A stretch of DNA of 47,691 nucleotides from an uncultured Coriobacteriia bacterium. GTDB lineage: Bacteria > Actinomycetota > Aquicultoria > CAYWVN01. The translations under genes and the position numbers were made by a program. Shown piece after piece: positions 1 through 39,405 of this stretch. The DNA lies in the NCBI GenBank assembly GCA_964461725.1, contig CAYWVN010000001.1:1-47691 (forward strand), read 5' to 3'. The number at the start of each line of letters is the position of its first letter. Within the stretch, counting starts at the first letter, position 1. The notes under the pieces are model-generated. The model was not told the origin of the DNA, did no database searches, and was given only the letters and a program-made list of their open reading frames with translations.

Positions 1-1269
1 GCTATTTCGAAACCCGTGCGCGAGGAAGAGAATGCGATCGTGCGCCGCCTGAAGACAGCATACGCGCCATTGCTGCGCATGGCCGTTAGCAGGCCGCTGC
101 CGGTAATTTCCAGTGCCGCTCTGCTGTTTGTATTCGCTGTCTTGTTGTTTGGCCGGCTTGGACAGGAATTCGCTCCCACGTTGGACGAGAAAAACATCGT
201 CATGGAGATCAGGCGCACGCCGAGCACCTCGCTCGCCCAATCGCAGGCGATGCAGCTCCTGATCGAACGCCAGATCAGCAAGGTTCCGGAGGTCGCGTTT
301 GTGTTCTCCCGAGTCGGTACACCCGATCTGGCTGCCGATCCGATGCCTCCCAACGTGGCCGACACCTACATCATCCTCAGGCCGCAGAGCGAATGGCTCG
401 ATCCTGGCATGACCAAGGACGTGCACGCCAAAGACGCGCACATGAAAGACAACGCCAAGTGCCGCTACTGCCACAACGTCTCGACTGCCGACCAGCAGTG
501 GGACTGCCGGAGCTGTCATCCGAAGGGCACTCTGCCGGGAGGCGGCACGGCCAACAAGCCGCCGGTGGCCAACGCCGGACCGGACCAGTCGGCGACGACT
601 GGGCAGAGCGTCAGCTTCGACGGTTCGTTGTCCCGCGACCCCGATGGCTCCATCAGGAGCTACAGCTGGAGCTTCGGCGACGGCACGACCGGCACCGGTG
701 TTACCACGTCGCACACCTACAACGCGGCTGGCGCCTACACGGTGACCCTGACTGTTACCGATGACAAGGGCGCCACCGGCACGGATACGGCCATCGTGAC
801 GGTGACCGCTCCGTCGTCCGGGGAGCTCATGACGGATGAAGCTGCCTGGATTCAGAACCTGAACCAGACCGACAATGACTCCAGGGGTACCGCGACCAAC
901 ATCACGGCGAGCATGGGGGACGGCGACACGTCCGTCGGCTATGAGGTGGTGAAGGACCGGGACCGCAGCAAGGTCATCGCGGTCAAGCTCAACAAGGACT
1001 GGAGGCTGTACTCCAAGGTGGTGCTCAAGTTCTTCGTGAGCTCCATCACCGAGAGCCCGGACAAGGCCAAGATCTACAACTACAAGTCCGACGGCAGATC
1101 GGTGGACTCCAGCGTGAGTGCGGACGTCAAGTCGACCGGCTGGATGCAGGTGGATGTGAGTGGCATCGCGTCCAAGATGTCCGGCTACGGTTGGATGAAG
1201 TTCCGCATCACTTCCGATGACAAGGCCTTCAAGGTCTCGGAGGTGAGGCTGGTAGTCACGGCCAAGTAG
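1..1269 (+). CDS. 5'-partial composite ORF: CusA/CzcA-type RND efflux pump internal fragment (nt 1-420) continuing in frame into a dihaem c-type cytochrome segment, a PKD domain and a C-terminal beta-sandwich domain
   Basis: Frame 1 is open from nt 1; the track ORF 16..1269 starts at an internal GTG. aa 1-135 read like the TM7/periplasmic part of heavy-metal RND pumps (LFGRLGQEFAPTLDEKN, DPMPPNVADTYIILRPQSEWLDPGMTKD). From nt ~421 come CRYCH and CRSCH haem motifs, then a PKD signature (FDGSLSRDPDGSIRSYSWSFGDGTTG...HTYNAAGAYTVTLTVTDDKG). Stop TAG at 1267-1269. Confidence 0.6.
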   Translation, partial: AISKPVREEENAIVRRLKTAYAPLLRMAVSRPLPVISSAALLFVFAVLLFGRLGQEFAPTLDEKNIVMEIRRTPSTSLAQSQAMQLLIERQISKVPEVAFVFSRVGTPDLAADPMPPNVADTYIILRPQSEWLDPGMTKDVHAKDAHMKDNAKCRYCHNVSTADQQWDCRSCHPKGTLPGGGTANKPPVANAGPDQSATTGQSVSFDGSLSRDPDGSIRSYSWSFGDGTTGTGVTTSHTYNAAGAYTVTLTVTDDKGATGTDTAIVTVTAPSSGELMTDEAAWIQNLNQTDNDSRGTATNITASMGDGDTSVGYEVVKDRDRSKVIAVKLNKDWRLYSKVVLKFFVSSITESPDKAKIYNYKSDGRSVDSSVSADVKSTGWMQVDVSGIASKMSGYGWMKFRITSDDKAFKVSEVRLVVTAK

Positions 1270-1411: not shown

Positions 1412-1439
1412 TTGACATGCACATGGAGACGTGTATCAT
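1412..1439 (+). promoter_or_regulatory. Sigma70-like promoter, TTGACA-16 nt-TATCAT
   Basis: Perfect -35 TTGACA (1412-1417), 16-nt spacer, -10 TATCAT (1434-1439). Lies in the 475-nt gap upstream of the first giant cytochrome gene. Confidence 0.5.
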
Positions 1440-1450
1440 CCAAGATGACG

Positions 1451-1485
1451 ACCGCGTGGCGTGAGCCATTCACGCGTGTCGCGGT
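1451..1485 (+). promoter_or_regulatory. Nested inverted repeat just downstream of the promoter (operator or 5'-leader hairpin)
   Basis: ACCGCG..CGCGGT encloses the 17-bp palindrome GCGTGA-gccat-TCACGC (1459-1475). Sits about +5 to +40 relative to the predicted start of the 1412-1439 promoter. Confidence 0.3.
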
Positions 1486-1574
1486 TGTACGAAGAGAAAG
1501 TCGGACAGGTGCCCAGCCGGCTTTTTCTTCCTTTTCTGGGCTGTTTGCCTCTTGTGGCCTTGCGACGCTGTGGG

Positions 1575-1583
1575 TGCTAGAAT
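1575..1583 (+). promoter_or_regulatory. Possible second promoter, extended -10 TGcTAGAAT
   Basis: TG-c-TAGAAT at 1575-1583. No good -35, which is tolerated for extended -10 promoters. About 240 nt upstream of the cytochrome start. Confidence 0.3.
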
Positions 1584-1823
1584 CCTGCCCAAGATGGTCT
1601 TAAGGGCACGAGATCGTCGCTTCAGATTACCCATGACTTCTCGCTCAGCCGCGGCCATCCAAGGCCTGGTGTGGGCGTGCGGCGGCCTGTTCATGCAGCG
1701 TTCTCGCGTAACAGAGCGCGCGGTTTCTCGTTGTACTAGTGTCAGGGCAACAGGGGCCCGCCCGTGGCAACTTGAAGAGCTGTGCGGTTGCGGCGGCGGG
1801 GATTTCCAGACGGGGTAGGAGAC

Positions 1824-4800
1824 GTGGGCTTGAACGCGCGTGACCTCAGGCAAGCGCTGGATGATTCGCTAGAGCTGGTCCTGCACCAGGGCCTGCGCAC
1901 GGAACAGGCGGCCAAGCGCTTTCCCGAGTTGGAGAGTGACCTGTTGCCGTTGCTGAGGACGATGGCTGCTGCACGGCAGGCTCCGGCAATGCGGATGCCT
2001 GATCCCTCCAAGAACCGCGTGTGGGAGTCCGTAGAGGACAAGATCACGGCGACCGCTCCACCGGCCGGCCGGTTCCGTGTCAGGGCCGGGCGCTTCCTGC
2101 GTCACTTCAACTACCCCCAGCTGGCGGCCTCTTTCACAATGGTGAGCTTTCTGGTCGCCAGCTCGTGGGCGTTGGCGTCGGCGCTCACACCGGCGCCTGT
2201 GTCTAGCCCGATTCAACCTGACACGAGAGGCGGGTCCGTGGCGGCCGGAGCAGCGGGCGGCGTAACCGCGCCGGGGCAGCTGCCCACTGAAAGCTATGCT
2301 TCGGGCACCGGAGGCGGGATCAGCGTCAACCCGAGTTCCGGCACCGCAGGGTCTTCCGGATCGCTGTCGACCGGCGCCGGCTCGACCGTCGCGTCGGCCA
2401 ACACGGGCGATGAGGACTCCTCGGGCGGCTCCGGTGGTGACTCCGGCAGCTCGGGGAGTTCCGGTGGCGGCTCGTCGTCCACCAAGAAGCACAAGCCCAA
2501 GCCGCCGCAAGGCAACCACGGGACAGGCGACGAGGGCGATGGCCCTGGGCTGCCGGTGTCTACTCCGACGAGCCTGGCCGTCTACGCCGGCGACCTTGAG
2601 AATGATCTCTCGTGGGCGGCACCGGCCGACGCGAGCGGACGCCTCAAGGGCTACGACGTGTATCGGAGCGACACGGAAGACGGGACCTATCAGAAGGTCA
2701 ATGACGCGCCCGTTGCCTCCAGCGGATACGAAGATCCGATTTCGGAAGACGAACTCGGTCTCTACTACTACAAGGTCCGTTCGGTCTCCAAGTGGGGGCA
2801 GGAGAGCGGGCTCACGGAGGCGGAACCCAACCTGTACGTGAAGATCTCACACCGCTTCGCGGCTGCGGGCAGCGATGAAGTGATCGCGGCCAACGGCAAG
2901 CTCTCTTTCCTCGTGCCGACCGCTTCACTTACACAGGACACCACAGTTACCATCGACGAGCGCGACACCGCGCCGATCGTCGAAGACGCCCGCCAGGCGT
3001 CACCTCCCTACGACTTCGGCCCGGACGGGCTATCGTTCTCGGACAGCGCGCCGGCGCACTTGAGCATGGGCTACTACTTCGGGGTGAGTGACGCGGAGCT
3101 GGACCTGCTGCTGAGCACGACGGTGAATCTCTATTACTTCGACGAAGCGAGCGGCAGTGCGGTCCAGGTTCCAGACGGCGATGTCGCGGTCGACGGGGCG
3201 AGCAAGACCGTGAACGCCGCCGTGCGCCACTTTACCACCTACTGGTCGAGCGCCAAGGTCAATCCGCACGGCAACTCATCCAGTGGATCGACCGACTGGT
3301 GCACGAGCATCTGTCACGGACTGCACGGCGGGGGCTACAGTGCGACCAAGTGGAACGCCTACGACGTGTGTGTCCAGTGCCACGGCAACACCAACTCCTA
3401 CAACCCGCCCGCCGGAGCCGGTCTGACGACGACGGCCTACAACATCGAGGCCGGGTTCATAGACTGCGCCGACCAGACCTACTCTGATTCAACGATGTCG
3501 CGGCATCCGGCGCCGGAAAGCCTCATGGTCTGCAGCGCCTGCCACAGCCCGCATAGGAAGATAACCGATCTCACTGACAACTTGTATTACCGCTATCGGG
3601 ATCCCATAACGCCCGGCAACTATGCCAGCGCCTACACCTACTCCTACACCGCCAGCCCGCTCGGCAACGCTTTCTGTTGGGGGTGCCACGGGACGCAGGC
3701 CAACGTCTGGTCGGTGGCGGTGGGCCAGATCGCCTCGATCTCCTACTACACACAGTCGCTGGGGGACCACAGGACCGGCTACGAGTCGCTGGCGGCCCAC
3801 GACGTGTCGCTGCCGGCTTCCGGAGCCGCGCCCAACGCTTGGGTCCCGCCGACGTCTGCCCTGGGGGACAGGCAAGGTGTCAACCAGAGCACGAACATCC
3901 GATGTGAGAACTGCCATTATCACCACGGGACCAGCCAAGCGAGGGCACTGACGGGATACCGCCTGACGAGCTCCTATCAAGGTGGCCGGGAGGAGAACCT
4001 GTGCTACCAGTGCCACACGCAGACCTGGAAGGCCGGTATGAAGAACATCCGCGGCGAGTTCTCCAAGGCGTACTCGCACACGGTAGGCTCACAGACCTAC
4101 TACCACAACGCCTACAGCGAGAGCCTGACCGGGGTCATCGCCGGCCAGCGACACGTCGAGTGCGTCGACTGCCACAATACGCATCGCGCGAGGATGGGGA
4201 CGCACACCCGCGGGACCAACGCCGTGACGGGGGCGCTCGTCGGGGCCATGGGAGTCGTGCCCAACTTCGGGTCGACGACCGGCACGGCCGGCTCATACGC
4301 GATCACCCAGTCGGCGACGCGCGAGTACCAGATCTGTCTGCGCTGCCACTCCAGTTTCGACGCCTCCGCGCCTAAGGAGATCTCAATCGACTTCAACATC
4401 AACAACCCGTCGTATCACCCGGTGACATCGGTGGGGCGGAACAGCACGATGGCGGCCGGCACGCTGACCGCACCCTGGACGGCGTCGAGCACGATGTACT
4501 GCTCCGACTGCCACACGAGCGACTCGACGTCCATCTCCGGGCCGCACGGGTCGACCAACGCGTACATGCTGGCGCGCGCCTACTCGACCGCCTCGCGGAC
4601 CTCATCTACCGGATTCCTCTGCTACATATGCCACCAATACAACACCTACTATGCCGGAACCAACACGCAGTCGTACTTCAAGAAGTCGGGTAACGACAAC
4701 CTGCACTACACGCACGTGAATGCCGCCAAGGCGCCGCAGATGAACTGCTGGCGGTGCCACGACTCGCACGGCAGCGGCTTCAAGCAGCGTCTGATCGCCG

Positions 4801-6404
4801 AGGGGCGAGGCATCAACGCCTTCATCGGTCCCGCGCCCAGCAACTACTCGACTTCGAATTGCACGACCACCGGCTGCCATGGCTCGGACGACAACTGCTA
4901 CACGTGCCACGGCGAGACCGGCGGCAACCAGCGCGTGGTCTACCTGATGGGCCGCGGTTTTGCCGGCTCCGTGAACGGAGGTGTGGCCAAGACGTACCAC
5001 CACAACATGACGTCGCCGACGACGGCGTTTGCCGGGACTTCCGCGGATCCGCCGACGACTTCCGTCTCGACGAACACCTGCGAGGGTCGCTGTCACGCCA
5101 AGCATGCGGAGCATACCGGCACCAACGCCAAGTCACTCAGGGCCGGCAACGTGGAGCGCGAGCTGTGCCTCTACTGCCACGGCGTGGCCGGACGGGCCTA
5201 TCCGGCCCGGACGTTCACTTCCGTGTCGTACTCCGGGACGGCACATGACTACAGCACTCTGGGCTACACCGAGAACCGGTGGAACCCGAGCGTCGGCTAC
5301 AGCGCGAACTACCAGTACACCAAGAACTGCAACAAGTGCCATGCGCCGCACGGGACCAACATAAAGTATCTGGTCAACGAGGTAGTGGAGAACATGGGCA
5401 ATACCGGCTACGCCAACTACACTACGACGGCGGTCTCCGGCGAAGCCCAGCGGGATCGCGCCTGCTTCGCCTGCCACGGCCCAAAGGGCCCGGCCCCGCG
5501 TGACGTGAGCACCGCCTTCAATGAGTCCTCCAGGCACGACGTGTTCAGCACGGGGCAGGCCGGCCGCCATCAGGCGACCAGCACGGAGGCCACCGGTTCC
5601 GCCAACCGCCACGTGCTCTGCGAGGACTGCCATAATCCACACGGAGCCACAGCTTCGAACGTCCTCAGCGGGGTGTGGGGCGTGACGGTGAGCTACGGTC
5701 CACTCACCTACACGCGCATCGCGCAGGTCCAGACAGGCAAGGGGTGGCAGCTCTGCTTCAAGTGCCACAGCGGTTACGTGACTCTGCCGGCCGGAAGGCC
5801 GAACGTGGCAGTGCAGTTCACCCCCACAGTCGCTTTCCAGCACGGAGTCATGAGCGCCGGGGTCATGAACCCGAACGCCCTCATCGACGCCACGTTCGTG
5901 TCGCCGTGGACCAGGAACAGCCGAACCACATGCACGGACTGTCATGGTGACTCTGATTCGACCGCGCCCAAAGGCGTGCACGCCTCGGCCGCTGCGTCCA
6001 TCCTTCGGACGCCGACCAGCTCGGCGGCGCCCTCAGGCGCTTCCGACCAGTACGTCAACTGCTTCCTGTGCCACCGGTGGGAGGTCTACGACAACAATGT
6101 GGCGAACACTTCAGGCTCGCCCAGCGAGAACAACAGCCGGTTCGATCACAGTGGCTCCAACGGTGGCCATGACAAGCTGGTCGGAGACACGACCGTCTCA
6201 GGCATCTGGTGCCTGGCGTGCCACGGGGGCAAGGAAAAGGGCGGCATCCACGGGACCACGAACAACACGCTGCAGCATCTGAACGGGCAGTCCATCGCGT
6301 CCTATGCGAGCTTTACCGCCGGGACTATCACGTGTGACACGGTAGGTTCAGGCTCGGCGTGCACGCAGCACACCGGCGGCAAGTCGTATACCGCGAACTT
6401 CTAG
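1824..6404 (+). CDS. Giant membrane-anchored multihaem c-type cytochrome (19 CxxCH + 2 CxxxCH + 1 CxxxxCH, ~22 haem sites) with a cytoplasmic helical N-domain, one TM helix, a Ser/Gly-rich linker and an FN3-like domain
   Basis: Track ORF 1782..6404. Start is uncertain: GTG 1782, GTG 1824 or TTG 1830 (AGGAG at 1817-1821 is 8 nt before TTG 1830). TM helix YPQLAASFTMVSFLVASSWALASAL (~nt 2112-2192). S/G-rich linker at ~2292-2480. FN3-like segment LAVYAGDLENDLSWAAP...YYYKVRSVSKWG. Haem motifs run from nt ~3300 onward, many as CxxCHxxHG (CSACHSPH, CENCHYHHG, CNKCHAPHG, CEDCHNPHG). Variant sites: CTSICH, CTTTGCH, CEGRCH. Confidence 0.9.
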   Translation: MGLNARDLRQALDDSLELVLHQGLRTEQAAKRFPELESDLLPLLRTMAAARQAPAMRMPDPSKNRVWESVEDKITATAPPAGRFRVRAGRFLRHFNYPQLAASFTMVSFLVASSWALASALTPAPVSSPIQPDTRGGSVAAGAAGGVTAPGQLPTESYASGTGGGISVNPSSGTAGSSGSLSTGAGSTVASANTGDEDSSGGSGGDSGSSGSSGGGSSSTKKHKPKPPQGNHGTGDEGDGPGLPVSTPTSLAVYAGDLENDLSWAAPADASGRLKGYDVYRSDTEDGTYQKVNDAPVASSGYEDPISEDELGLYYYKVRSVSKWGQESGLTEAEPNLYVKISHRFAAAGSDEVIAANGKLSFLVPTASLTQDTTVTIDERDTAPIVEDARQASPPYDFGPDGLSFSDSAPAHLSMGYYFGVSDAELDLLLSTTVNLYYFDEASGSAVQVPDGDVAVDGASKTVNAAVRHFTTYWSSAKVNPHGNSSSGSTDWCTSICHGLHGGGYSATKWNAYDVCVQCHGNTNSYNPPAGAGLTTTAYNIEAGFIDCADQTYSDSTMSRHPAPESLMVCSACHSPHRKITDLTDNLYYRYRDPITPGNYASAYTYSYTASPLGNAFCWGCHGTQANVWSVAVGQIASISYYTQSLGDHRTGYESLAAHDVSLPASGAAPNAWVPPTSALGDRQGVNQSTNIRCENCHYHHGTSQARALTGYRLTSSYQGGREENLCYQCHTQTWKAGMKNIRGEFSKAYSHTVGSQTYYHNAYSESLTGVIAGQRHVECVDCHNTHRARMGTHTRGTNAVTGALVGAMGVVPNFGSTTGTAGSYAITQSATREYQICLRCHSSFDASAPKEISIDFNINNPSYHPVTSVGRNSTMAAGTLTAPWTASSTMYCSDCHTSDSTSISGPHGSTNAYMLARAYSTASRTSSTGFLCYICHQYNTYYAGTNTQSYFKKSGNDNLHYTHVNAAKAPQMNCWRCHDSHGSGFKQRLIAEGRGINAFIGPAPSNYSTSNCTTTGCHGSDDNCYTCHGETGGNQRVVYLMGRGFAGSVNGGVAKTYHHNMTSPTTAFAGTSADPPTTSVSTNTCEGRCHAKHAEHTGTNAKSLRAGNVERELCLYCHGVAGRAYPARTFTSVSYSGTAHDYSTLGYTENRWNPSVGYSANYQYTKNCNKCHAPHGTNIKYLVNEVVENMGNTGYANYTTTAVSGEAQRDRACFACHGPKGPAPRDVSTAFNESSRHDVFSTGQAGRHQATSTEATGSANRHVLCEDCHNPHGATASNVLSGVWGVTVSYGPLTYTRIAQVQTGKGWQLCFKCHSGYVTLPAGRPNVAVQFTPTVAFQHGVMSAGVMNPNALIDATFVSPWTRNSRTTCTDCHGDSDSTAPKGVHASAAASILRTPTSSAAPSGASDQYVNCFLCHRWEVYDNNVANTSGSPSENNSRFDHSGSNGGHDKLVGDTTVSGIWCLACHGGKEKGGIHGTTNNTLQHLNGQSIASYASFTAGTITCDTVGSGSACTQHTGGKSYTANF

Positions 6405-6427
6405 CCAGGAGAGGACGCACGGCCATT

Positions 6428-7825
6428 TTGGACACTCTCTTTGAACTACTGCGTTCGCGGAAGCTTGCCATAGGGCTCTTCATTGTGATCTCGGGGTTGG
6501 CCGTGGTGGGTACCATTGTGCCCCAGGCCCACCTGACACCGCCCGCGAGCTACCAAGCATTCTTGCAGAAGAACCCCACCCTGGCTCCCCTGGCCCAGAG
6601 GTTGGGTCTCACTGCCCTATACTACTCGTGGTGGTTCTACGCTCTTCTCCTATTGCTGCTGGCCAACACTGCGGCCTGCACCATCAGTCGCCTGGGTCCC
6701 CTGTGGCGCTTGCTGGCCGAGCCACCGTCGCTCAAGGACGCGCAGGCGATTGCGGCGATGCCCGGACACAGGAGCATCATGTGGCCGGACGTCCGGCCAT
6801 CGGACGGGGCCAAGCGGATCGGCGCGGTCTTCAGACGCGCCGGCTACGGCGTGAGACTGCACGAGGGCGAGTCAGGGACGCGGGCTGTCGCCTGGAAAGG
6901 ACGCGCCGGCCCGCTTGGCTCAATCGTCTTCCACTTGAGCTTCATCCCCATCGTGCTGGGTATTCTTTCCATGACGCTTTTTGGTCTTAGGGGAGTGGTT
7001 CTTGTCGACCAAGGAGAGCCGTGGAAGGAGGGCCACGGTGCGTATCTTTCTTTGAAGGAAGGCTATCTCTTTCGCGACCGCCATCCTGGGTTCCAGATCA
7101 CCTTGAACGGCGTCCGGCCCAGATACCGAAGGCGGGACCTTGTGGACCTGGCTGCCGACGTCACGGTGAACGGGGGGCTTGGGGAAAGGAAGCGGACAAT
7201 CGGTGTCAATCGCCCGCTGTCCCAGGACGGGTTTCTCCTTGTGTTGGACTCGTACGGGTTTGCCCCGCTGGTCCGGATTGCCGAGCGCGGTAGGGCGCGC
7301 TCCTACGCCTATATGAACCTCGGCTCGCGCGGTATCGAGGGCTCCGCCTTTGGGGACAGGTTCTCGATTGCAGGCAACCTGCAGGCGGACCTCCGCTTCT
7401 ACCCGGACGCCGTCTACGAGCGGGGCAAGGTGAGGGTTCTCTCACAGATCGCCCGCAGGCCTCTCGTCGAGCTGTTGCTTCGCCGGAACGGAAAGATCGT
7501 CTTCGACGGCCCGGTCGCGCTGGGAGGGACGGTGAAGCAGGGCGGCATGGCAGTGACGTTCTCCAAATGGCACCACTACGTAATCCTCAAGTTGATCAGA
7601 GACCCCGGCTGGTTCGTGCTGGTCGGGGGCTTCGTTCTGGCCGTTGCCGGACTAGTACTGCGCGCCGGCTTTGCATACCGCAGGTTCTGGATTGCGGTAG
7701 AAGCCCGCGGCAAGAGCCGACAGCTCCTCATGTCAGGAAGGAGCGACCGGTACGGCGCGTTCCTCGAACAGGAGATGGGGTCCTTGCTGTCAAGACTTCA
7801 GGAAGTCGGGGAGAAGGAGGCATAG
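6428..7825 (+). CDS. resB: Cytochrome c biogenesis protein ResB/CcsB (System II)
   Basis: N-terminus LFELLRSRKLAIGLFIVISGLAVVGTIVPQ is typical of ResB. TM helices flank a large extracytoplasmic loop. The likely start is TTG 6428, after AGGAGAGG (6406-6413); the track start 6359 would overlap the cytochrome gene. Confidence 0.8.
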   Translation: MDTLFELLRSRKLAIGLFIVISGLAVVGTIVPQAHLTPPASYQAFLQKNPTLAPLAQRLGLTALYYSWWFYALLLLLLANTAACTISRLGPLWRLLAEPPSLKDAQAIAAMPGHRSIMWPDVRPSDGAKRIGAVFRRAGYGVRLHEGESGTRAVAWKGRAGPLGSIVFHLSFIPIVLGILSMTLFGLRGVVLVDQGEPWKEGHGAYLSLKEGYLFRDRHPGFQITLNGVRPRYRRRDLVDLAADVTVNGGLGERKRTIGVNRPLSQDGFLLVLDSYGFAPLVRIAERGRARSYAYMNLGSRGIEGSAFGDRFSIAGNLQADLRFYPDAVYERGKVRVLSQIARRPLVELLLRRNGKIVFDGPVALGGTVKQGGMAVTFSKWHHYVILKLIRDPGWFVLVGGFVLAVAGLVLRAGFAYRRFWIAVEARGKSRQLLMSGRSDRYGAFLEQEMGSLLSRLQEVGEKEA

Positions 7826-8650
7826 GTGCTGTTCTATGAGACCATCTTCTTTTGGGTTGCGGTGGCCGGCTATGTCCTGGCCTTCGTCTATGGGCTTTTC
7901 TTGGTCGTCGCCCAGAAGGAATCCTCCCGGCTGTATGTTGCCCTGGCGGTGTCGGGTCTGGCTTGTCAGGCGGTGGCTATCGTGGTCAGGATTGACTATC
8001 TGTCGGCCCCACCGGTGCGCAATGTCTACGAGCTGAACATGCTGGGCGCCTGGCTGGTCGTGGCGATGTGGCTTGTTGTTCAGTGGAAATATCCGGAACT
8101 CAGGTCACCCGGGCTCGTCGTTCTAGCGGTGGCGTTCCTGATGATGGGCTTCGGCCTACTGTCACGGCCGGAGCTCAAACCCCTCACTCCGGCATACAAG
8201 AACCTATGGCTCTACGTGCACGTGTTCTTCGCCTGGTTTGCGTACGCGGCGTTCACAAGCGCATCGGCTGCCGCGATCTGGTTTCTATTGAGAGACCGCC
8301 CGCGGGCGCGTGCCGGGGACGAGCAGGCGGACCGGGCGCTGCTGGAACGTCTCGACTGGCTCGGCTATCGCCTGATTCTCTTTGGCTTCGCCATGAACGC
8401 AGTGATGCTTGTCTCTGGTGCGATCTGGGCTCGGGAGCTGTGGGGTAGCTACTGGAGCTGGGACGCGATAGAGACCTGGTCTCTGGTCGTCTGGCTGGCC
8501 TACGGTCTCTATCTCCACCTGAGAGCCAACTACGGCTGGAGGGGACGTCGGGCGGCCTGGTTTGCGGCTCTGGCGCTGCTACTAGTCAGCTTCAGCTTCT
8601 GGGGCGTAAACTACCTGACGTCTTCGGTCCATTCCTTCTACATGGCCTAG
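7826..8650 (+). CDS. ccsA: Cytochrome c biogenesis protein CcsA (System II haem lyase subunit)
   Basis: Trp-rich haem-handling motif WGSYWSWDAIETWSLVVWLAY in a polytopic protein. GTG 7826 directly follows the resB stop and is preceded by GGAGAAGGAGG. Confidence 0.9.
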   Translation: MLFYETIFFWVAVAGYVLAFVYGLFLVVAQKESSRLYVALAVSGLACQAVAIVVRIDYLSAPPVRNVYELNMLGAWLVVAMWLVVQWKYPELRSPGLVVLAVAFLMMGFGLLSRPELKPLTPAYKNLWLYVHVFFAWFAYAAFTSASAAAIWFLLRDRPRARAGDEQADRALLERLDWLGYRLILFGFAMNAVMLVSGAIWARELWGSYWSWDAIETWSLVVWLAYGLYLHLRANYGWRGRRAAWFAALALLLVSFSFWGVNYLTSSVHSFYMA

Positions 8651-8664: not shown

Positions 8665-9333
8665 TTGGCGACTATGGCAAAACGTGCAGGGTCTAATCAG
8701 CGCGAGGGAGACCGGGGCTCCGGGGCAGGTGTCTGGAACGGAGCAGCTGGACCGAGCCGCGCGACCAAGCGCCCGGAGTCAGCCGAGCAGAAGGCGCCAT
8801 CCGAGCGGCCAAGGACGATGACCAAGGCACGTTGGGCGACCGTGCTTCTTGCCGCAGTCGCTCTTCTTCTGCTGGTTGTTACCGTGGCCTCGCGAAGAGG
8901 CCCCGCGGAGAAGATCGATTCCAGGGCGCTGGCCAAGGTACCACGGGAGTATCTGCTGCCCGGTGAACCGGTTGCCCGGGCTGAGGTCCTCGCGGGAGAA
9001 CGGCGGATGCCGATAATCAAGTGGCTTGTCGCCGTCAAACAGTACACCAACCTGCCCAGTCTCGCGGTCTGGAGGCGCTTCGACCGGGTATTGCGCTCGG
9101 GTGGCTTCGAGCACAATCTCACAGGAGAAGAGAAGCGGGACGACTACTTCTCCATGGACATGCTCAAGCCGGCCGGCCGCCTGCACATAGAGGTCTACCT
9201 CTATCCCACCCCGCAAGGTCCGAAGAAGAGCAAGTCCATCATCGTGTTGAGTCAGATCACCCACGATGCCTTCTCACAGGCGTGGTCACATCGCAATCAG
9301 ACACAGGCCGGCTCGCCTCAGCCTCCTGACTAG
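8665..9333 (+). CDS. Hypothetical single-pass membrane protein (charged N-tail, TM, ~140-aa extracytoplasmic domain)
   Basis: ORF with TM helix WATVLLAAVALLLLVVTVA. No motif recognised. The start is ambiguous (TTG 8665, ATG 8674 or ATG 8818). Confidence 0.45.
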   Translation: MATMAKRAGSNQREGDRGSGAGVWNGAAGPSRATKRPESAEQKAPSERPRTMTKARWATVLLAAVALLLLVVTVASRRGPAEKIDSRALAKVPREYLLPGEPVARAEVLAGERRMPIIKWLVAVKQYTNLPSLAVWRRFDRVLRSGGFEHNLTGEEKRDDYFSMDMLKPAGRLHIEVYLYPTPQGPKKSKSIIVLSQITHDAFSQAWSHRNQTQAGSPQPPD

Positions 9334-15592: not shown

Positions 15593-15608
15593 TGTGAACT
15601 GGTTCACA
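15593..15608. promoter_or_regulatory. Perfect CRP/GlxR-type operator TGTGA-N6-TCACA
   Basis: TGTGA (15593-15597), actggt, TCACA (15604-15608). The arms extend to TGTGAAC/GTTCACA. It lies 87 nt upstream of ATG 15695 of the second multihaem cytochrome. Confidence 0.55.
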
Positions 15609-15694
15609 TGCGGACACCGAGGGCGGCAGAAAGCCACCGTGGGTGTCGCGGTGTGCTGCGCCCAGGGGTGCGCACGAATGCAGGATCAGCACGC

Positions 15695-18451
15695 ATGATA
15701 GTGGTGAAGAGAGGGGTTCTGGGGCTCTCGGCGTCGATTGCCGTGATGCTGGCGTTGGCCGGCCTTTGGGCACCGGTTGCGTCGGCCGCCAACGCTCACT
15801 CCAGCTACTCGCGGGGGACGGAGCGATGCCGCTCCTGTCACTTCAACCACACCGCCGCGGAATCGGACAGCCTGCTCAAGACGTCCACTGTGTCAGGCAG
15901 CTGCCGGATGTGCCATGACGGTACTGGGAGCGATTACGACGTCGAGGCGGGGACCGCGTTCGGTAAGCCGGCTCCTGCCGGGAACGCGGCCATGCGCTCG
16001 GGTCGGACCACATCGGCCCATGACCTGGACGTGACGACCAAGGCGCCGGGTGGCTCCGGTAACTGGATCGAGATGGACTGCGCGGCGTGCCATGCCCCGC
16101 ACGGTTCGGAGAACTTCCGGAACCTGCGCGAGAATATCCTGGGACGGGCGGTCTCGGTGTCGGCGGATGTTCGCCCGGCGACCTCCACGTCCGCCGAGGT
16201 TGTCACATACAAGGGTGGCAACGTTGAGTTCTGCACCGCGTGTCATACGACCTACTACCAGGACACCTCTCGGGGGCACTACTTCCTCAGGTCGGCCGGC
16301 AAGGCGGAGGCCGGATCACGGTTGATTTGTGAGGACTGCCACAACTCCCATGGCTCCCGCGGCACCGGCAGCATCTTGTCCGAGGAGCTTCTGACGGCGG
16401 TCAGGGGAGAGCGGCTGTTGGCCAGCGGCGGGTACCAGCGCTTCGTCTCTCTGGAAAGCGATGCTTGGGACAGCCGGGTCGGGGTGACAATCTATGTTAA
16501 CGGTCATCGTGCCGACGGGAACTACAAGGTCAACTACGACGAGGCCTACGTGCAGTTCGACGCCCCGCTGGATGACAATGCCAAGGTGACCGCCGACTAT
16601 CGGCGTACCGGGGTCTCGAAAGGCTCAAGCGGGCGGAGGCGAAGGGACGCGTGCCTGGCGTGTCACCACGCCAAGAACGCTCCGGCTCTGTATGGTCGCC
16701 AGCCGGTGCAGATGCTGACCGGCATGGAGGGTCACGATATCGGACTTCTTCGCCCCTGTCAGGACTGCCACGGCGACGTGCATGACGTCGGGCCCGGCGA
16801 CAGCGGGTGCTACCCCTGCCACTCCGAGTTCGACCCGGTGAGCGGCAAGAGCGGTCCGGCCTCGGACCTGCTGTCGCTCATGGGCGAGTCGAAGAACGGG
16901 CTGGCACCCAAGGTGAAGTACCACCACACGATAACGGACGGGCGTAGTGCGGGCACCAACTCCTGCGAGGTCATGTGTCATGCGCCTCACCCGCACTACA
17001 GGGGCGCGGCCTCCGCGGGCGCTTCCGCGCACACCTGGCTCACCAGCCCGGCTCTGGGTACCGTAGAGGTCAGCATGGCCGCCCGGACGGACTACGACTA
17101 CGTTGGCGCGGGCGGCGGTGGGGTGTGCCTCTCCTGCCACTCCGCCGACTCCAAGGTAGTCCCCAGCGACCTCCAGGTCGACGCGCGCGTCTATCAAGAC
17201 AGTCTCCACAGCTACAAGACGGCCGTCTACGACGCCGACTTCGGTTCGAGCGCGGCCGGCGACGGTACGTTCTACGAGGCGGGTTGCGCGAAGTGCCACT
17301 CTCCGCATGGCTCGAATCTTCCAGGCATGATGCGGCAGGCCATCAAGGACACGGGTTTGTCCGAGGAGGGCCGGGTCCATGAGGTGAAGACCGATTCGAG
17401 GGGACGGCTTAGCGATTCCGTCTGCTATGCGTGTCATGCGGAGGCGAGCTCGGGCCTTCCGACCAGCAGCTATAGCCTGCTGGCCTATCCGTTCGGCCCC
17501 GCGACCGACAATGGCTCGGCGTTCTATCCCGGGCGGGGGTCGCTCGTCGACTATGATCGCGCCCGCTGGCCCGGATTCGACGTGTATGCCGAGTCGGCCC
17601 ACGGGAACAAGACCGACGCCCAGATGCGTTGGCCGGGTACCGACTCCGGGCAAGGGTCCCCGTACGCCAAGGACGCCGATCTGTCCTACACGCGTGAGGC
17701 ACCGGTGGGCGATGAAGGCAAGTGCAAGAACTGTCATGCGACACACGGCTCCAGCGAGAACGACATGCTGCTGGCGGCCTACAGCGGAACGGCCGGCGAA
17801 ACGCAAGCGATCAACAACGTGTGCTTCGTCTGCCACGACGCGGACGGGCCCGCGCAGAACATCTACCAGTACTACGACAGCGATGCTGCCGGGCCGTCGG
17901 CTGGGCACGCACTCAAGGTAGGCGGTGCGGGCAAGGCGGCCGGCTACAAACTGCTCTGCAGCGATTGTCACGCACCGCACGGCTCCAAGAACGGAAACGG
18001 CGCCATGCTGTCCGACAGCCTGAACACCAGCAGCTACCAGCTGTCCGCGCCGGACGACCCGGCCAGCCACGATGCGACCTGCATCGCTTGTCACGGCAGC
18101 CCGGGAGGGAACTACGGCGCGCAAGTTGCCGGCCGCGTCATGTATGGGCACGCTATCGTCACCACTCCGGCCGATCACGCCGAGAAGACCGGCCGGTGCC
18201 TCCATTGCCACGGACCGGCCCACGCGCCGAGTTCGGGGACGGCTTCCGGGGACGAGTGCTACAGCTGCCATCCCGACGGTACGCCAGAGTCAGGTGGCGT
18301 CACGGGCGGCACAGATGGCGGCACTGGTGGCGTCACGGGCGGCTCCGAGGGCGATACCGGCGCGGCGACCGGCGGCTCCGCAGGGACTATCGGCGGCGCG
18401 TCATGGGGCGTTCTTCAAGGGGCAACATCGGCCGTCAAGAACAGGCGTTAG
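15695..18451 (+). CDS. Secreted multihaem c-type cytochrome (17 CxxCH + 1 CxxxCH, ~18 haem sites) with a Gly-rich repeat tail
   Basis: Signal peptide MIVVKRGVLGLSASIAVMLALAGLWAPVASA/AN. Motifs CRSCH, CRMCH, CAACHAPHG, CTACH, CEDCHNSHG, CLACH, CQDCH, CYPCH, CEVMCH, CLSCH, CAKCHSPHG, CYACH, CKNCHATHG, CFVCH, CSDCHAPHG, CIACH, CLHCH, CYSCH. The track start 15608 lies upstream of the signal peptide. Confidence 0.9.
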   Translation: MIVVKRGVLGLSASIAVMLALAGLWAPVASAANAHSSYSRGTERCRSCHFNHTAAESDSLLKTSTVSGSCRMCHDGTGSDYDVEAGTAFGKPAPAGNAAMRSGRTTSAHDLDVTTKAPGGSGNWIEMDCAACHAPHGSENFRNLRENILGRAVSVSADVRPATSTSAEVVTYKGGNVEFCTACHTTYYQDTSRGHYFLRSAGKAEAGSRLICEDCHNSHGSRGTGSILSEELLTAVRGERLLASGGYQRFVSLESDAWDSRVGVTIYVNGHRADGNYKVNYDEAYVQFDAPLDDNAKVTADYRRTGVSKGSSGRRRRDACLACHHAKNAPALYGRQPVQMLTGMEGHDIGLLRPCQDCHGDVHDVGPGDSGCYPCHSEFDPVSGKSGPASDLLSLMGESKNGLAPKVKYHHTITDGRSAGTNSCEVMCHAPHPHYRGAASAGASAHTWLTSPALGTVEVSMAARTDYDYVGAGGGGVCLSCHSADSKVVPSDLQVDARVYQDSLHSYKTAVYDADFGSSAAGDGTFYEAGCAKCHSPHGSNLPGMMRQAIKDTGLSEEGRVHEVKTDSRGRLSDSVCYACHAEASSGLPTSSYSLLAYPFGPATDNGSAFYPGRGSLVDYDRARWPGFDVYAESAHGNKTDAQMRWPGTDSGQGSPYAKDADLSYTREAPVGDEGKCKNCHATHGSSENDMLLAAYSGTAGETQAINNVCFVCHDADGPAQNIYQYYDSDAAGPSAGHALKVGGAGKAAGYKLLCSDCHAPHGSKNGNGAMLSDSLNTSSYQLSAPDDPASHDATCIACHGSPGGNYGAQVAGRVMYGHAIVTTPADHAEKTGRCLHCHGPAHAPSSGTASGDECYSCHPDGTPESGGVTGGTDGGTGGVTGGSEGDTGAATGGSAGTIGGASWGVLQGATSAVKNRR
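18293..18391 (+). repeat. Three imperfect 33-bp (11-aa) Gly-rich tandem repeats at the C-terminus of the second cytochrome
   Basis: GGTGGCGTCACGGGCGGC occurs at 18293-18310 and again at 18326-18343. The protein reads GGVTGGTDGGT / GGVTGGSEGDT / GAATGGSAGTI. Confidence 0.7.
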
Positions 18452-25581: not shown

Positions 25582-26322
25582 GTGGCCGAACCGCGCATGG
25601 GTTTCCTGGACCACCTAGGCGAACTCAGATCGCGCCTCATCGTCGCCGTGGCGGCCTGGGGTGCGGCCGCGATCGTCGCGTTCTTCTTCGTCGAGCCCAT
25701 CTTCGTGTGGCTCAAGCGCCCGATCAACGACATCAAGAACATCCACCTCATCTACCAGACCGTGCTCGAACCGTTCATGACCAAGATCAAGATCGCGGCA
25801 TTCGCGGGCCTCGGGCTGGCGCTCCCAGTCATCAGCTACGAGTTCCTGGCTTTCGTCTCTCCGGCGCTTCGCAAGAAGGAGAAGAAGTACATCTACCCGA
25901 TTCTCTTCTTCTTGGTGCTCCTGTTCGTGGGCGGCGCGATGTTCTGCTACTTCCTGGTGCTGAAGAACAGCGCCGAATGGTTGGTCAACCAGTCTTTCGG
26001 CGGGATGCAGCCCTATCTGACAGTCAGCCAATACATCTCCTTCGTGGCTCTGTTCATGATCGCCTTCGGGGTGGGCTTCGAGACGCCGCTTGTCGTGCTC
26101 CTGCTGGTCATGCTGGGCGTGGTGAGTCCGAAGGCGCTCCGGCAGAACTGGCGGGTGGCGACTGTCGTCATCCTGCTGGTGGCGGCGGTGGCAACCCCTG
26201 ACTGGAGCCTGCCCCCGATGATCATCCTGTCCGTAGCCATGATGGTTCTCTACTGGATCAGCGTGCTGGTTTCTTATGCCCTGGTGCGGGGCCGCAAGAA
26301 GAACCTCCTCGAGGAGGACTAG
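25582..26322 (+). CDS. tatC: Sec-independent translocase TatC
   Basis: N-terminus GFLDHLGELRSRLI and a six-TM layout typical of TatC. RBS TAGGAGC lies 9 nt upstream of GTG 25582. Confidence 0.9.
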   Translation: MAEPRMGFLDHLGELRSRLIVAVAAWGAAAIVAFFFVEPIFVWLKRPINDIKNIHLIYQTVLEPFMTKIKIAAFAGLGLALPVISYEFLAFVSPALRKKEKKYIYPILFFLVLLFVGGAMFCYFLVLKNSAEWLVNQSFGGMQPYLTVSQYISFVALFMIAFGVGFETPLVVLLLVMLGVVSPKALRQNWRVATVVILLVAAVATPDWSLPPMIILSVAMMVLYWISVLVSYALVRGRKKNLLEED

Positions 26323-26352
26323 GCCGCGGCGGCGGTCCGAGGTGAGGCCGTG

Positions 26353-27501
26353 ATGGTAGCTTCGCGTCTCAGTAGGCGGGAGTTCCTGGTCTACTGTGGA
26401 GCCCTGGCCGCCTGGTTGGGGCTCTCCGAACTGTACGTTCCCCAGATCGCCCGGGCGATCGAGCAGCTCACCAGACGCAAGGTGCCGCTCGTCTGGCTGC
26501 AGGGCCAGGCGTGCGCCGGCTGCACGATCTCGACTCTGAACTCCGGCGAGCCGACGGCCGCTGAGATCATCCTGGACGTGGCCTCGCTGCGCTACCAGCC
26601 CAACCTGATGGCCGCGACGGGCGACCAGGCGATGGTCGCGATACAGGACACCATCAAGAAGGAGAAGGGCAGGTTCGTCGCCGTCATCGAAGGCTCCATC
26701 CCGACCGCGCACAACGGCGCCTTCTGCGTGGTGGGTCGCGCGGACAACCGGCCGATCCCCTTCACGGCGCTGGCCCGCCAGGCCGCGGACGCGGCGCTGG
26801 CCACCGTTGCCGCTGGGACCTGCGCCGCATACGGGGGTATTCCGGCCGCGAACAAGGGGGTCACGGGTGCGCGCGGGGCCGAGGCGTTCCTGAACCGGCC
26901 CGTGGTGAACGTCCCGGGCTGCCCGACCCACCCGGACTGGCTGGTCGGCACTCTGGTCAAACTGGTTCTCTTCGGCAAAGACGCGGTGATGGCGGACTTG
27001 GACGGCCTGGGCCGGCCCAAGGAGTTCTTTCGCACGCTGGTCCACGACAACTGCCCGCGGCGGCACTGGTTCGAGGCCGGGCTCTTCGTCGAGGACTGGA
27101 ACGATCCCGCACAGGCCGGCCGATGCCTGTTGCTCAAGGGCTGCAAGGGCCCATTCACCTTCGCCGACTGTCCCAAGCGGCGGTGGAACGATCACGTCAA
27201 CTTCTGCATCGACGCGAACGCCCCCTGCGCGGGGTGCACGCAGCCCGAGTTCTACGCGCGCTTCGCACCCCTCTACCAGCGGTCCTTGTCCGTGCGGGTG
27301 CCGGGACTGGCCGGCGCGGAGGTTTCGGCCGACCGGGTGGGGATGGCCCTCGGGGTGGCGACCGCGGTCGGCATCGGGGCGCATCTGGCGGGTCAGATCG
27401 CGACGGGGCGCCTGGGCCACGGGGGGCCGCGCGAGGGCGCCGGCCAGGATGAGGGTTCCGGCCGCGCCGATGGCCCAGGCCGCGCCGATGGGGAGGGCTA
27501 G
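26353..27501 (+). CDS. [NiFe(Se)] hydrogenase small subunit, Tat-exported, with a C-terminal membrane anchor
   Basis: Twin-arginine signal SRREFLVYCGALAAW. Fe-S cluster motifs WLQGQACAGCTIS, GTCAAYGGIP, KGCKGPFTFADCPKRRWN and NFCIDANAPCAGC. C-terminal hydrophobic helix MALGVATAVGIGAHLAGQI. Confidence 0.9.
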   Translation: MVASRLSRREFLVYCGALAAWLGLSELYVPQIARAIEQLTRRKVPLVWLQGQACAGCTISTLNSGEPTAAEIILDVASLRYQPNLMAATGDQAMVAIQDTIKKEKGRFVAVIEGSIPTAHNGAFCVVGRADNRPIPFTALARQAADAALATVAAGTCAAYGGIPAANKGVTGARGAEAFLNRPVVNVPGCPTHPDWLVGTLVKLVLFGKDAVMADLDGLGRPKEFFRTLVHDNCPRRHWFEAGLFVEDWNDPAQAGRCLLLKGCKGPFTFADCPKRRWNDHVNFCIDANAPCAGCTQPEFYARFAPLYQRSLSVRVPGLAGAEVSADRVGMALGVATAVGIGAHLAGQIATGRLGHGGPREGAGQDEGSGRADGPGRADGEG

Positions 27502-27504
27502 CCT

Positions 27505-35426: not shown

Positions 35427-35440
35427 AAGGGGGAACGGAA

Positions 35441-39403: not shown

Positions 39404-39405
39404 AT

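What the first reader, a model, noticed from the sequence alone, without database searches (positions are those of the whole stretch)
1824..6404. Unusual architecture of the first giant cytochrome: cytoplasmic helical N-module + TM + S/G linker + FN3 + ~22 haems
Instead of a cleavable signal peptide, the protein begins with ~100 cytoplasmic residues (RDLRQALDDSLELVLHQGLRTEQAAKRFPELESDLLPLLRTMAAAR). From memory, this resembles the ALDxCLxxLxxGxSxExxLxxYPExAxELxPLL module found in front of the single TM helix of many anti-sigma-like or DUF5667-type proteins of Chloroflexota, Actinomycetota and Firmicutes. Fusing such a module to a huge extracytoplasmic haem array hints at signalling across the membrane (redox state reported to the cytoplasm), or simply at a type-II anchor. 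Three non-canonical sites (CTSICH, CTTTGCH, CEGRCH) sit among 19 CxxCH motifs.
Basis: partly seen in the sequence, partly recalled or inferred. Interest (0 to 1): 0.65.

Follow-up and report, generated by a model that had tools for sequence, protein, structure and literature searches.

The report
Giant cytochrome with anti-sigma-type membrane anchor
A 1524-residue, 22-haem-site cytochrome from a rock-dwelling bacterium has no ordinary export signal; it starts with a small cytoplasmic domain and membrane helix otherwise found only in presumed sigma-factor inhibitors, a domain combination none of my searches found elsewhere, which might link electron export to gene control.

Summary
The ORF (start most likely TTG 1830, stop 6404; 1524 aa) has 19 CxxCH sites plus CTSICH, CTTTGCH and CEGRCH. 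It also has one hydrophobic helix (aa 98-119), a 121-aa S/G-rich spacer and about 97 residues ahead of the helix.

A profile built from 23 Chloroflexota proteins, without the window sequence, matches aa 1-111 at 38.4 bits. The best of 5000 shuffles scored 13.5 bits, and hhalign gives 94.8% probability.

That family is single-pass and mostly carries DUF5667. In 41 of 41 testable loci it lies downstream of an ECF sigma-factor gene. None of the 44 members has a haem motif.

The window copy is the most divergent member. It lacks both family cysteines and the ES of the GES motif. No sigma gene lies in the 47.7 kb.

Pfam, NCBIfam, PDB sequences and Foldseek do not place the module in a characterised anti-sigma class. 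The closest cytochrome homologue has an ordinary signal peptide.

My reading is a type-II anchored electron-export cytochrome built by domain swap onto an anti-sigma-type N-terminus. Whether the N-domain still signals is open (about 0.35). FN3 is only weakly supported.

The parts
1412..1439 (+). sigma-70-like promoter candidate TTGACA-16-TATCAT; it would give a leader of about 390 nt
   Evidence: 11 of 12 matches, against 0.1 expected in shuffles. No Rfam family matches the leader. This is a consensus match only.
1817..1832 (+). ribosome-binding site AGGAG (1817-1821) and the most likely start codon TTG 1830
   Evidence: 8-nt spacer; the collection's gene call is 1524 aa; profile position 1 aligns to this Met.
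1830..1979 (+). N-module, aa 1-50: a predicted three-helix domain homologous to the N-terminus of ECF-sigma-linked DUF5667-type proteins
   Evidence: 38.4 bits; hhalign 94.8%; pLDDT of the 10-residue blocks 87-94, helices 3-20, 24-28 and 35-50.
1980..2120 (+). cytoplasmic linker, aa 51-97, holding the family's conserved 'P-x-P...' segment (possible fourth helix, aa 63-72) and an Arg-rich stretch before the membrane helix
   Evidence: aligned to profile positions up to 108; helix 63-72, low confidence; net charge +5.
2121..2186 (+). the single hydrophobic helix, aa 98-119 (LAASFTMVSFLVASSWALASAL), ending in an A-S-A|L signal-peptidase-like site
   Evidence: The reading of the cleavage site comes from the sequence only.
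2187..2549 (+). Ser/Gly-rich low-complexity spacer, aa 120-240
   Evidence: 31 Gly and 26 Ser in 121 residues.
2550..2840 (+). FN3-like segment, aa 241-337 (weak support)
   Evidence: neogenin, myomesin, DCC and integrin beta-4 chains (FN3 proteins) dominate the PDB hits, E 0.03-0.9; no Pfam fn3 hit.
2841..3299 (+). beta-rich region of unknown fold, aa 338-490
   Evidence: no significant match, and the AlphaFold model failed.
3300..6404 (+). multihaem region: 19 CxxCH sites plus CTSICH (3300-3317), CTTTGCH (4860-4880) and CEGRCH (5079-5096), then a C-terminal tail and the stop codon
   Evidence: Paired_CXXCH_1 1.5e-27, Cytochrom_c3_2 and Cytochrome_C7.
6359..7825 (+). ResB/Ccs1 (System II cytochrome c maturation); the listed ORF overlaps the end of the cytochrome gene
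   Evidence: PF05140 2.4e-58.
7826..8650 (+). CcsA/ResC haem-handling protein
   Evidence: PF01578 1.1e-39.
15608..18451 (+). second large multihaem cytochrome (947 aa); it has an ordinary signal peptide and serves as an internal contrast

Best explanation
The gene encodes a membrane-anchored giant c-type cytochrome with its N-terminus in the cytoplasm and its C-terminus outside. Its job is to carry electrons outward through the cell envelope.

From the outside inward, the extracytoplasmic part is:
- an array of up to 22 haems;
- a beta-rich region that includes an FN3-like segment;
- a 121-residue Ser/Gly spacer that could span a cell wall.

The haems would be attached by the co-transcribed System II proteins ResB and CcsA.

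The protein lacks a signal peptide. Its first 119 residues (three-helix module, linker with a possible fourth helix, Arg-rich stretch, single helix) descend from the cytoplasmic and transmembrane part of a Chloroflexota family. That family consists of ECF-sigma-coupled, DUF5667-type single-pass proteins, which are presumed anti-sigma factors. The protein is therefore a domain-swap product: the family's outer domain was replaced by a haem wire.

I take the inherited N-terminus to serve mainly as a non-cleaved signal anchor. Its original partner-binding role is weakened or lost.

Shown: the architecture, the homology, the family's linkage to sigma genes, and the absence of a sigma gene here.
Inferred: the topology, the electron-export role, and the anchor-only function of the N-domain.
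For: Homology:
- A profile built without the window sequence matches aa 1-111 at 38.4 bits (i-E 5.5e-11).
- The next best ORF in the window scores 8.1 bits, and the best of 5000 shuffles scores 13.5 bits.
- hhalign gives 94.8% probability and E 5e-8.

Family:
- 19 of 23 members carry DUF5667.
- 41 of 44 loci have an ECF sigma gene upstream; the other 3 are cut by a contig end.
- None of the 44 members has a CxxCH motif.

Signs of relaxed constraint in the window copy:
- It is the most divergent member: median 33% identity, against 40-55% for each member versus the others.
- Four of the 12 near-invariant positions are changed: C13S, E22L, S23R and L28A. The family's second cysteine is also changed, to Ala.
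- No ECF sigma gene lies anywhere in the window; the best score is 2.8 bits.
- The gene has its own promoter-like site after a 560-nt gap.

Topology:
- The charge bias is +5 before the helix and 0 after it.
- c-type haem attachment by ResB/CcsA takes place outside the membrane (established knowledge). The ResB and CcsA genes follow directly.

Electron-export context:
- The neighbours include a second cytochrome and NHL, TPR and B12-radical-SAM genes.
- The only detectable cytochrome homologue, P0002 from Aquicultorales, sits in a similar NHL/TPR/cytochrome cluster. It has an ordinary signal peptide and no N-module.
Against: - A plain anchor needs only a few charged residues and a helix. Here about 97 cytoplasmic residues are kept, and the first 50 are predicted as a confident fold (pLDDT blocks 87-94) from only two sequences.
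- The match to the family runs through the fourth-helix segment and keeps the spacing to the membrane helix. That suggests continued selection on the N-domain.
- Only about 1.4 kb of trustworthy upstream DNA exists. In 7 family loci the sigma gene lies 0.6-4 kb upstream rather than adjacent, so a sigma gene beyond the contig end cannot be excluded.
- The A-S-A|L site could allow cleavage.
- There are no orthologues and no population variants, so selection on the N-domain could not be measured.
Confidence: 0.5

Rival explanations
1. The protein is a working anti-sigma factor with a haem-wire sensor. The N-domain still holds an ECF sigma factor encoded elsewhere in the genome. The state of the outer cytochrome (redox state, contact with a mineral acceptor, folding or haem loading) would control proteolysis or conformation of the anchor. 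That would release the sigma factor and so couple electron export to transcription.
For: - The N-domain's fold is predicted with high confidence.
- The full-length profile match includes the segment equivalent to a fourth helix.
- The layout (three-helix bundle, flexible linker, fourth helix, single membrane helix) is the one that defines class I anti-sigma domains (PMC7406223).
- The family is linked to ECF sigma genes in every testable locus.
- Some members show sub-threshold matches to two NCBIfam anti-sigma models: NF052375 at 7.1e-8 and NF010501 at 4.4e-4.
- Other cytochromes in the same region use plain signal peptides, so the unusual N-terminus is not needed for export.
Against: - There is no sigma gene in 47.7 kb, whereas family members have one directly or closely upstream.
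- The family's hallmark residues are lost, and this is the most divergent member.
- The window module has no hit in Pfam, NCBIfam or PDB sequences, and its model has no significant Foldseek match.
- A 22-haem array is far larger than known single-haem c-type sensor domains (general knowledge).
Confidence: 0.35
2. The N-terminus is a cleavable pre-sequence. The hydrophobic segment is cut by signal peptidase after A-S-A (aa 117-119), which frees the cytochrome into the wall. The 119-residue N-terminal piece is then a by-product, or it is degraded further as in regulated intramembrane proteolysis.
For: - The sequence has Ala at positions -3 and -1 at the outer end of the helix (SWALASA|LTP).
Against: - The hydrophobic stretch is 22 residues, nearer to a membrane anchor than to a typical signal-peptide core.
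- No signal-peptide predictor was available.
- Family members keep a similar helix as a permanent anchor in front of DUF5667.
Confidence: 0.1
3. Translation starts at ATG 2139 (MVSFLVASSW...) and the upstream 'module' is untranslated leader.
For: - ATG is a stronger start codon than TTG.
- The hydrophobic segment would then lie at the N-terminus, like a signal peptide.
Against: - No purine-rich ribosome-binding site lies before 2139 (upstream 20 nt AGCTGGCGGCCTCTTTCACA).
- A start there would leave no positively charged n-region before the hydrophobic core.
- The stretch 1830-2138 has coding-type GC3 of 0.79, against 0.61 in the true intergenic DNA.
- That stretch encodes a domain with a significant profile match that begins exactly at the TTG 1830 Met.
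Confidence: 0.03

Closest known systems
ECF-sigma-adjacent DUF5667 (PF18915) single-pass proteins of Chloroflexota (uncharacterised; presumed anti-sigma factors), for example P0006 and the genes in L001-L044
   Same: - N-terminal module of about 50 aa (L-D-x-x-L...G...E...[YF]-P-x...L-x-P-L-L-R).
- A conserved following segment, an Arg-rich stretch, and one membrane helix about 90-110 residues from the start.
- Profile match of 38.4 bits; hhalign 94.8%.
   Different: - The outer domain is an S/G spacer, an FN3-like segment and 22 haem sites, in place of DUF5667 or DUF5666.
- No adjacent ECF sigma gene.
- Both family cysteines and the E-S of G-E-S are replaced.
- It is the most divergent member.
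Class I anti-sigma factors (ASDI: RsiW, RseA, ChrR, RskA)
   Same: - Predicted layout of a three-helix bundle, a flexible linker, a fourth helix and a single membrane helix, with the N-terminus inside. This matches the ASDI definition in PMC7406223.
- In the related family, the gene lies directly downstream of an ECF sigma gene.
   Different: - No sequence or profile similarity to Pfam or NCBIfam anti-sigma models for the window protein, and none to any solved anti-sigma chain.
- No significant Foldseek match.
- No Hx3Cx2C zinc motif; there is no Cys before residue 491.
Large multihaem cytochromes of wall-bearing bacteria and their NHL/TPR gene clusters, for example the Aquicultorales protein P0002; Thermincola-type electron export is cited from general knowledge
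   Same: - Paired_CXXCH_1, c3 and c7 repeats.
- 34% identity to P0002 over 20% of the length.
- NHL and TPR neighbours in both loci.
- System II maturation genes next to the window gene.
   Different: - P0002 and the window's second cytochrome start with ordinary signal peptides.
- Only this protein carries the anti-sigma-type N-domain.
RsiV of Bacillus subtilis (anti-sigma-V, cut by signal peptidase at site 1)
   Same: Single-pass anti-sigma-type topology, with a signal-peptidase-like A-x-A site at the outer end of the helix.
   Different: - No sequence relationship was found.
- RsiV senses lysozyme through DUF4179 and is encoded next to sigV.
- Cleavage of the window protein is untested.
NapC/NirT/CymA-type membrane-anchored multihaem quinol dehydrogenases (general knowledge)
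   Same: An N-terminal membrane helix anchors a multihaem domain on the outer face of the membrane.
   Different: - Those proteins have four haems and only a short cytoplasmic tail.
- No NapC/NirT-family (Cytochrom_NNT) hit was found for the window protein.

Membership tests
ECF-linked DUF5667-type N-module family (Chloroflexota) | The N-terminal module matches a profile of the family built without the query | tested here: met
   38.4 bits, i-E 5.5e-11; 5000 shuffles reach at most 13.5 bits. hhalign 94.8%, E 5e-8.
ECF-linked DUF5667-type N-module family (Chloroflexota) | A single membrane helix about 90-110 residues from the start, preceded by basic residues | tested here: met
   Helix at aa 98-119, net charge +5 before it. 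It aligns to profile positions up to 108.
ECF-linked DUF5667-type N-module family (Chloroflexota) | Near-invariant residues of the module (L10, C13, G21, E22, S23, E25, L28, P32, L38, P40, L41, L42) | tested here: inconclusive
   8 of 12 are kept. C13S, E22L, S23R and L28A are changed. A few family members also lack single positions.
ECF-linked DUF5667-type N-module family (Chloroflexota) | Extracytoplasmic DUF5667 domain | tested here: not met
   No DUF5667 hit for the window protein. 19 of 23 family members have it.
ECF-linked DUF5667-type N-module family (Chloroflexota) | An ECF sigma-factor gene upstream on the same strand | tested here: not met
   The sigma profile scores at most 2.8 bits anywhere in the window, against 41 of 41 testable family loci. 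Caveat: only about 1.4 kb of reliable upstream DNA is available.
Class I anti-sigma domain (ASDI) | Three-helix bundle, then a linker, then a fourth helix | tested here: inconclusive
   AlphaFold predicts helices 3-20, 24-28 and 35-50 with pLDDT blocks of 87-94. Helix 63-72 has pLDDT below 55. The definition is taken from PMC7406223.
Class I anti-sigma domain (ASDI) | Sequence or structure similarity to known ASDI models or solved structures | tested here: not met
   Pfam and NCBIfam give no hit. The PDB profile search gives nothing below E 0.1. All Foldseek matches have E>2. Some family members reach only sub-threshold scores on NF052375 and NF010501.
Class I anti-sigma domain (ASDI) | Hx3Cx2C zinc motif (present in about half of ASDIs, so not obligatory) | tested here: not met
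   There is no Cys before residue 491.
Class I anti-sigma domain (ASDI) | Binds and inhibits a cognate ECF sigma factor | not testable with these tools
   This needs the rest of the genome and a binding assay or a co-fold.
Multihaem c-type cytochrome | Multiple CxxCH haem-attachment motifs and matches to cytochrome profiles | tested here: met
   19 CxxCH, two Cx3CH and one Cx4CH. Paired_CXXCH_1 1.5e-27, Cytochrom_c3_2 1.3e-10, Cytochrome_C7 9.5e-10.
Multihaem c-type cytochrome | An export route and a haem-attachment system are available | tested here: met
   ResB and CcsA genes lie directly downstream. A hydrophobic helix with N-in charge bias is present.
Multihaem c-type cytochrome | Covalently bound haem, and the number of haems | not testable with these tools
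   This needs haem staining and mass spectrometry.
Fibronectin type III domain | Match to an FN3 profile or fold | tested here: inconclusive
   No Pfam fn3 hit at E<=10. Neogenin, myomesin, DCC and integrin beta-4 chains dominate the PDB hits, but at E 0.03-0.9. The AlphaFold model is unusable.

The most novel reading that the evidence does not exclude
The protein would be the first 'haem-wire anti-sigma factor'. Its cytoplasmic module would sequester an ECF sigma factor encoded elsewhere. The sigma factor would be released when the outer 22-haem domain changes redox or contact state, or each time the cytochrome is cut at A-S-A|L by signal peptidase, as happens with RsiV. Extracellular electron transfer, or cytochrome secretion itself, would then be reported directly to the transcription machinery.
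Probability: 0.3. Interest if true: 0.8.

Novelty: new variant of a known kind. Interest (0 to 1): 0.55.

Why it matters
How bacteria sense that their extracellular electron conduits are engaged is poorly understood. This protein physically joins a very large haem wire to a cytoplasmic domain that otherwise occurs only in partners of ECF sigma factors. That makes a concrete, testable candidate for such a link.

The finding still matters if the N-domain is only an anchor. It would show that anti-sigma-type N-termini can be recruited as signal anchors for large secreted redox proteins. It also defines an N-terminal module for which I found no Pfam family or paper, conserved in the DUF5667 proteins and tightly coupled to ECF sigma genes.

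Tried and rejected
Searches with the N-terminus that found nothing:
- Pfam and NCBIfam scans of the N-terminus gave no hit.
- A word-indexed search of 5.8 billion proteins with aa 1-135 gave nothing at E<=10.
- A full phmmer search of aa 1-100 against 1.84 billion representatives returned the protein itself and three repetitive proteins: two that look like translated repeat DNA and one TPR-like repeat protein. A single short, divergent module cannot reach significance in databases of that size, so I switched to a targeted profile test.

Searches for relatives and structure:
- The full-length search found one distant cytochrome homologue, and it has no N-module.
- A metagenome scan with the window's own N-terminus found no relative.
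- A four-sequence alignment gave 21 more family loci, none with haem motifs.
- A PDB profile search and a Foldseek search of the N-module model found nothing significant.
- The AlphaFold model of aa 242-495 was unusable.
- A PDB search of aa 341-481 found nothing.

Other attempts:
- I looked for population variants to measure selection. All contigs in the four runs are identical at 2-5x depth.
- Taxonomy could not be assigned, because every window protein I looked up is a singleton at 90% identity.
- There is no Rfam element in the long leader.
- No paper in the library mentions DUF5667, and none links anti-sigma factors to multihaem cytochromes in this sense.

Rejected readings:
- A start at ATG 2139 (see rival explanations).
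- Membership in zinc-binding anti-sigma factors, because the module contains no Cys.
Full report
**1. What is in the sequence**

One long ORF runs from 1782 to 6404 on the + strand.
- AGGAG at 1817-1821 lies 8 nt before TTG 1830 and only 2 nt before GTG 1824.
- The public protein collection holds this product as exactly 1524 aa (P0001).
- The family profile described below aligns its first position to this Met.

Features, numbered from that Met:
- 19 CxxCH motifs, plus CTSICH (491), CTTTGCH (1011) and CEGRCH (1084). The first Cys of the protein is residue 491.
- One hydrophobic segment, aa 98-119 (LAASFTMVSFLVASSWALASAL). The 20 residues before it have net charge +5, and the 20 after it have net 0.
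- A 121-residue spacer with 31 Gly and 26 Ser.
- An FN3-like segment (aa 241-337) and a beta-rich region of unknown fold up to the first haem site.

Pfam sees Paired_CXXCH_1 (1.5e-27), Cytochrom_c3_2 and Cytochrome_C7 in the haem part. It sees nothing in the first 137 residues.

**2. Is the N-terminal stretch translated?**

The stretch 1830-2138 has codon-position GC of 0.67/0.49/0.79, like the rest of the gene. The 300 nt before it is flat at 0.64/0.60/0.61. ATG 2139 has no purine-rich site in front of it, and a start there would leave no charged n-region. Together with the homology below, this rules out the ATG 2139 start for practical purposes.

**3. Testing the remembered resemblance**

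Direct searches with the window N-terminus failed.
- Pfam and NCBIfam gave no hit.
- The word-indexed search gave nothing.
- A full phmmer scan of 1.84 billion representatives returned only the protein itself and repeat junk.

A 50-residue divergent module cannot reach significance against databases of that size, so I tested the claim another way.
- A consensus written from memory retrieved a real 91-aa protein, P0006 (63% identical to the consensus). Its gene lies directly upstream of a DUF5667 gene.
- Using P0006 as a seed, a scan of one genome per species returned 23 loci, all Chloroflexota.
- A later metagenome scan added 21 more loci.

I built an HMM from the first 125 residues of 22 of the genome proteins plus P0006, without the window sequence. 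I then searched all 658 six-frame ORFs of the window.
- The target ORF scored 30.8 bits as a whole ORF. The next best ORF scored 8.1 bits.
- The isolated N-terminus scored 38.4 bits (i-E 5.5e-11). It aligned profile positions 1-108 to residues 1-111.
- 5000 shuffles of the cytoplasmic part reached at most 13.5 bits.
- hhalign against a family alignment without the query gave 94.8% probability and E 5e-8, with 41% identity to the consensus over 49 columns.

The resemblance is therefore homology. It extends past the three-helix module, through the following 'P-x-P...' segment, and into the membrane helix.

**4. What the family is**

- 19 of the 23 genome members carry DUF5667, 7 carry DUF5666, and one carries FecR.
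- The gene immediately upstream, often overlapping by a few bases, encodes an ECF sigma factor. Sigma70_r2 and r4 were confirmed for 10 of 10 tested.
- Across all 44 loci, 41 have such a gene upstream on the same strand: 34 directly adjacent and 7 about 0.6-4 kb away. The 3 without it have fewer than 112 nt of upstream DNA.
- Some members give sub-threshold matches to two NCBIfam anti-sigma models. NF052375 reaches at best 7.1e-8 (32.7 bits against a cutoff of 100). NF010501 reaches at best 4.4e-4.
- None matches Pfam zf-HC2 at E<=0.001.
- No paper in the library mentions DUF5667.

The label 'anti-sigma-like' is thus a strong inference from gene neighbourhood, not an experimentally established function.

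**5. How the window copy differs**

- It is the only one of 45 sequences with haem motifs.
- It is the most divergent member: median 33% identity in the module, against 40-55% for each member versus the others.
- Four of the 12 near-invariant positions are changed (C13S, E22L, S23R, L28A), and the second family Cys is Ala.
- A profile of the family's sigma factors finds nothing in the whole 47.7-kb window; the best score is 2.8 bits.
- The gene follows a 560-nt non-coding gap that holds a strong sigma-70-like promoter match at 1412-1439.

One caveat applies. Contigs from the sequencing runs agree with the window only from position 402 onward and diverge before it. The reliable upstream DNA is therefore only about 1.4 kb, and a sigma gene further upstream cannot be excluded.

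**6. Structure**

AlphaFold on aa 1-100 with P0006 as the only extra sequence gives pLDDT blocks of 87-94 for residues 1-50. It predicts helices at 3-20, 24-28 and 35-50, then a low-confidence linker with a helix at 63-72.

This layout is the one that defines class I anti-sigma domains: a three-helix bundle, a flexible linker and a fourth helix (PMC7406223). However, Foldseek finds nothing significant (all E>2), and a profile search of PDB sequences finds nothing either. The layout is a resemblance, not a demonstration of membership.

The model of aa 242-495 failed (pLDDT 35). FN3 rests only on a PDB sequence search in which neogenin, myomesin, DCC and integrin beta-4 chains dominate the hits at E 0.03-0.9.

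**7. Context**

The cytochrome gene is followed directly by ResB (2.4e-58) and CcsA (1.1e-39), the System II haem-attachment proteins. After these come:
- a small membrane protein;
- a B12-radical-SAM protein;
- TPR and NHL-repeat proteins;
- a Wzy_C/TPR membrane protein;
- a second cytochrome of 947 aa with an ordinary signal peptide.

The gene upstream (402-1269) is also a cytochrome, with a PKD domain.

The only detectable homologue of the haem part is P0002 from an Aquicultorales genome (34% identity over 20% of the length). It sits in a similar NHL/TPR/cytochrome cluster. Its ORF extends upstream to an ordinary signal peptide, and its locus has no N-module.

The window comes from a rock metagenome, at 2-5x depth and with no variants. 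Every protein I looked up is a singleton at 90% identity.

**8. Interpretation**

Shown:
- a 22-site multihaem protein whose first ~119 residues are homologous to the cytoplasmic and transmembrane part of an ECF-sigma-coupled protein family;
- a combination absent from the 44 relatives collected and from the nearest cytochrome homologue.

Inferred:
- N-in/C-out topology, from the charge bias and from haem attachment taking place outside the membrane;
- an electron-export role, from the gene cluster;
- origin by domain swap.

Open: whether the N-domain still binds a sigma factor.
- The lost hallmark residues, the high divergence and the missing sigma gene favour an exapted anchor (0.5).
- The retained confident fold, the full-length match and the fact that neighbouring cytochromes manage with plain signal peptides favour a retained function (0.35).
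- The A-S-A|L site at the outer end of the helix allows a third reading, in which signal peptidase cuts the protein, as it does the anti-sigma factor RsiV (PMC6066255) (0.1).

**9. Novelty and verdict**

Each module is of a known kind; the combination is new as far as these searches reach. The finding is a new variant of a known kind. It is of moderate interest as it stands. Interest would be high if the signalling reading were confirmed.

Noticed in passing
window 1-401 (and ORF 16-1269): The first ~400 bases encode an AcrB/ACR_tran fragment (profile positions 505-638) fused in frame to a dihaem + PKD protein. Run contigs from X3 and X4 match the window only from position 402. Upstream of that they continue with different sequence that encodes another CxxCH (..GHDCVKCH). 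The contig's 5' end is therefore probably an assembly chimera, and the real upstream gene is a cytochrome-PKD protein.
   Followed up: partly
window 1412-1829: A strong sigma-70-like promoter match (TTGACA-16-TATCAT, 11 of 12) lies about 390 nt before the start codon, which implies a long leader. No Rfam family matches it. I did not examine its structure.
   Followed up: partly
window 34446-39498: A selenocysteine machinery cluster: a SelD-like AIRS protein (34446-35426), SelA (36050-37468) and SelB (37478-39403), followed directly by tRNA-Sec (39406-39498).
   Followed up: no
window 46310-47486: A molybdenum/tungsten cofactor riboswitch (66.3 bits) lies just upstream of a periplasmic binding protein gene (46431-47486; the match, 46310-46458, overlaps the first bases of the listed ORF) and next to a LysR regulator.
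   Followed up: no
window 25582-29004: TatC is followed by what look like the small and large subunits of a [NiFe] hydrogenase (26350-27501, 27505-29004). This is read from the translations and was not profile-tested.
   Followed up: no
L018:3533-6184 and L020:1617-3986: Two Anaerolineales family members carry tandem copies of the N-module within one protein.
   Followed up: no
L004, L005, L007, L014, L028, L039: In a subgroup of Dehalococcoidia loci the ECF sigma gene is not adjacent but 3-4 kb upstream. Where the adjacent upstream ORF was listed (L004, L005, L007, L014), a ~370-aa protein with a signal-peptide-like N-terminus lies directly before the module-bearing gene.
   Followed up: partly
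L045:5772-6000: The annotated start of the Aquicultorales cytochrome P0002 looks too far downstream. The ORF extends upstream to a Met followed by a typical signal peptide (MGAVYLHRSGAPLRSRVIGVLLLAAMAAGLSLSLPFKSFA).
   Followed up: partly
window 8665-9333: A 222-aa ORF between CcsA and the radical-SAM gene encodes a protein with a long charged N-terminal region and one hydrophobic helix. It has no significant family match. Its GC3 signal is weaker than that of its neighbours: it was not picked up.
   Followed up: no
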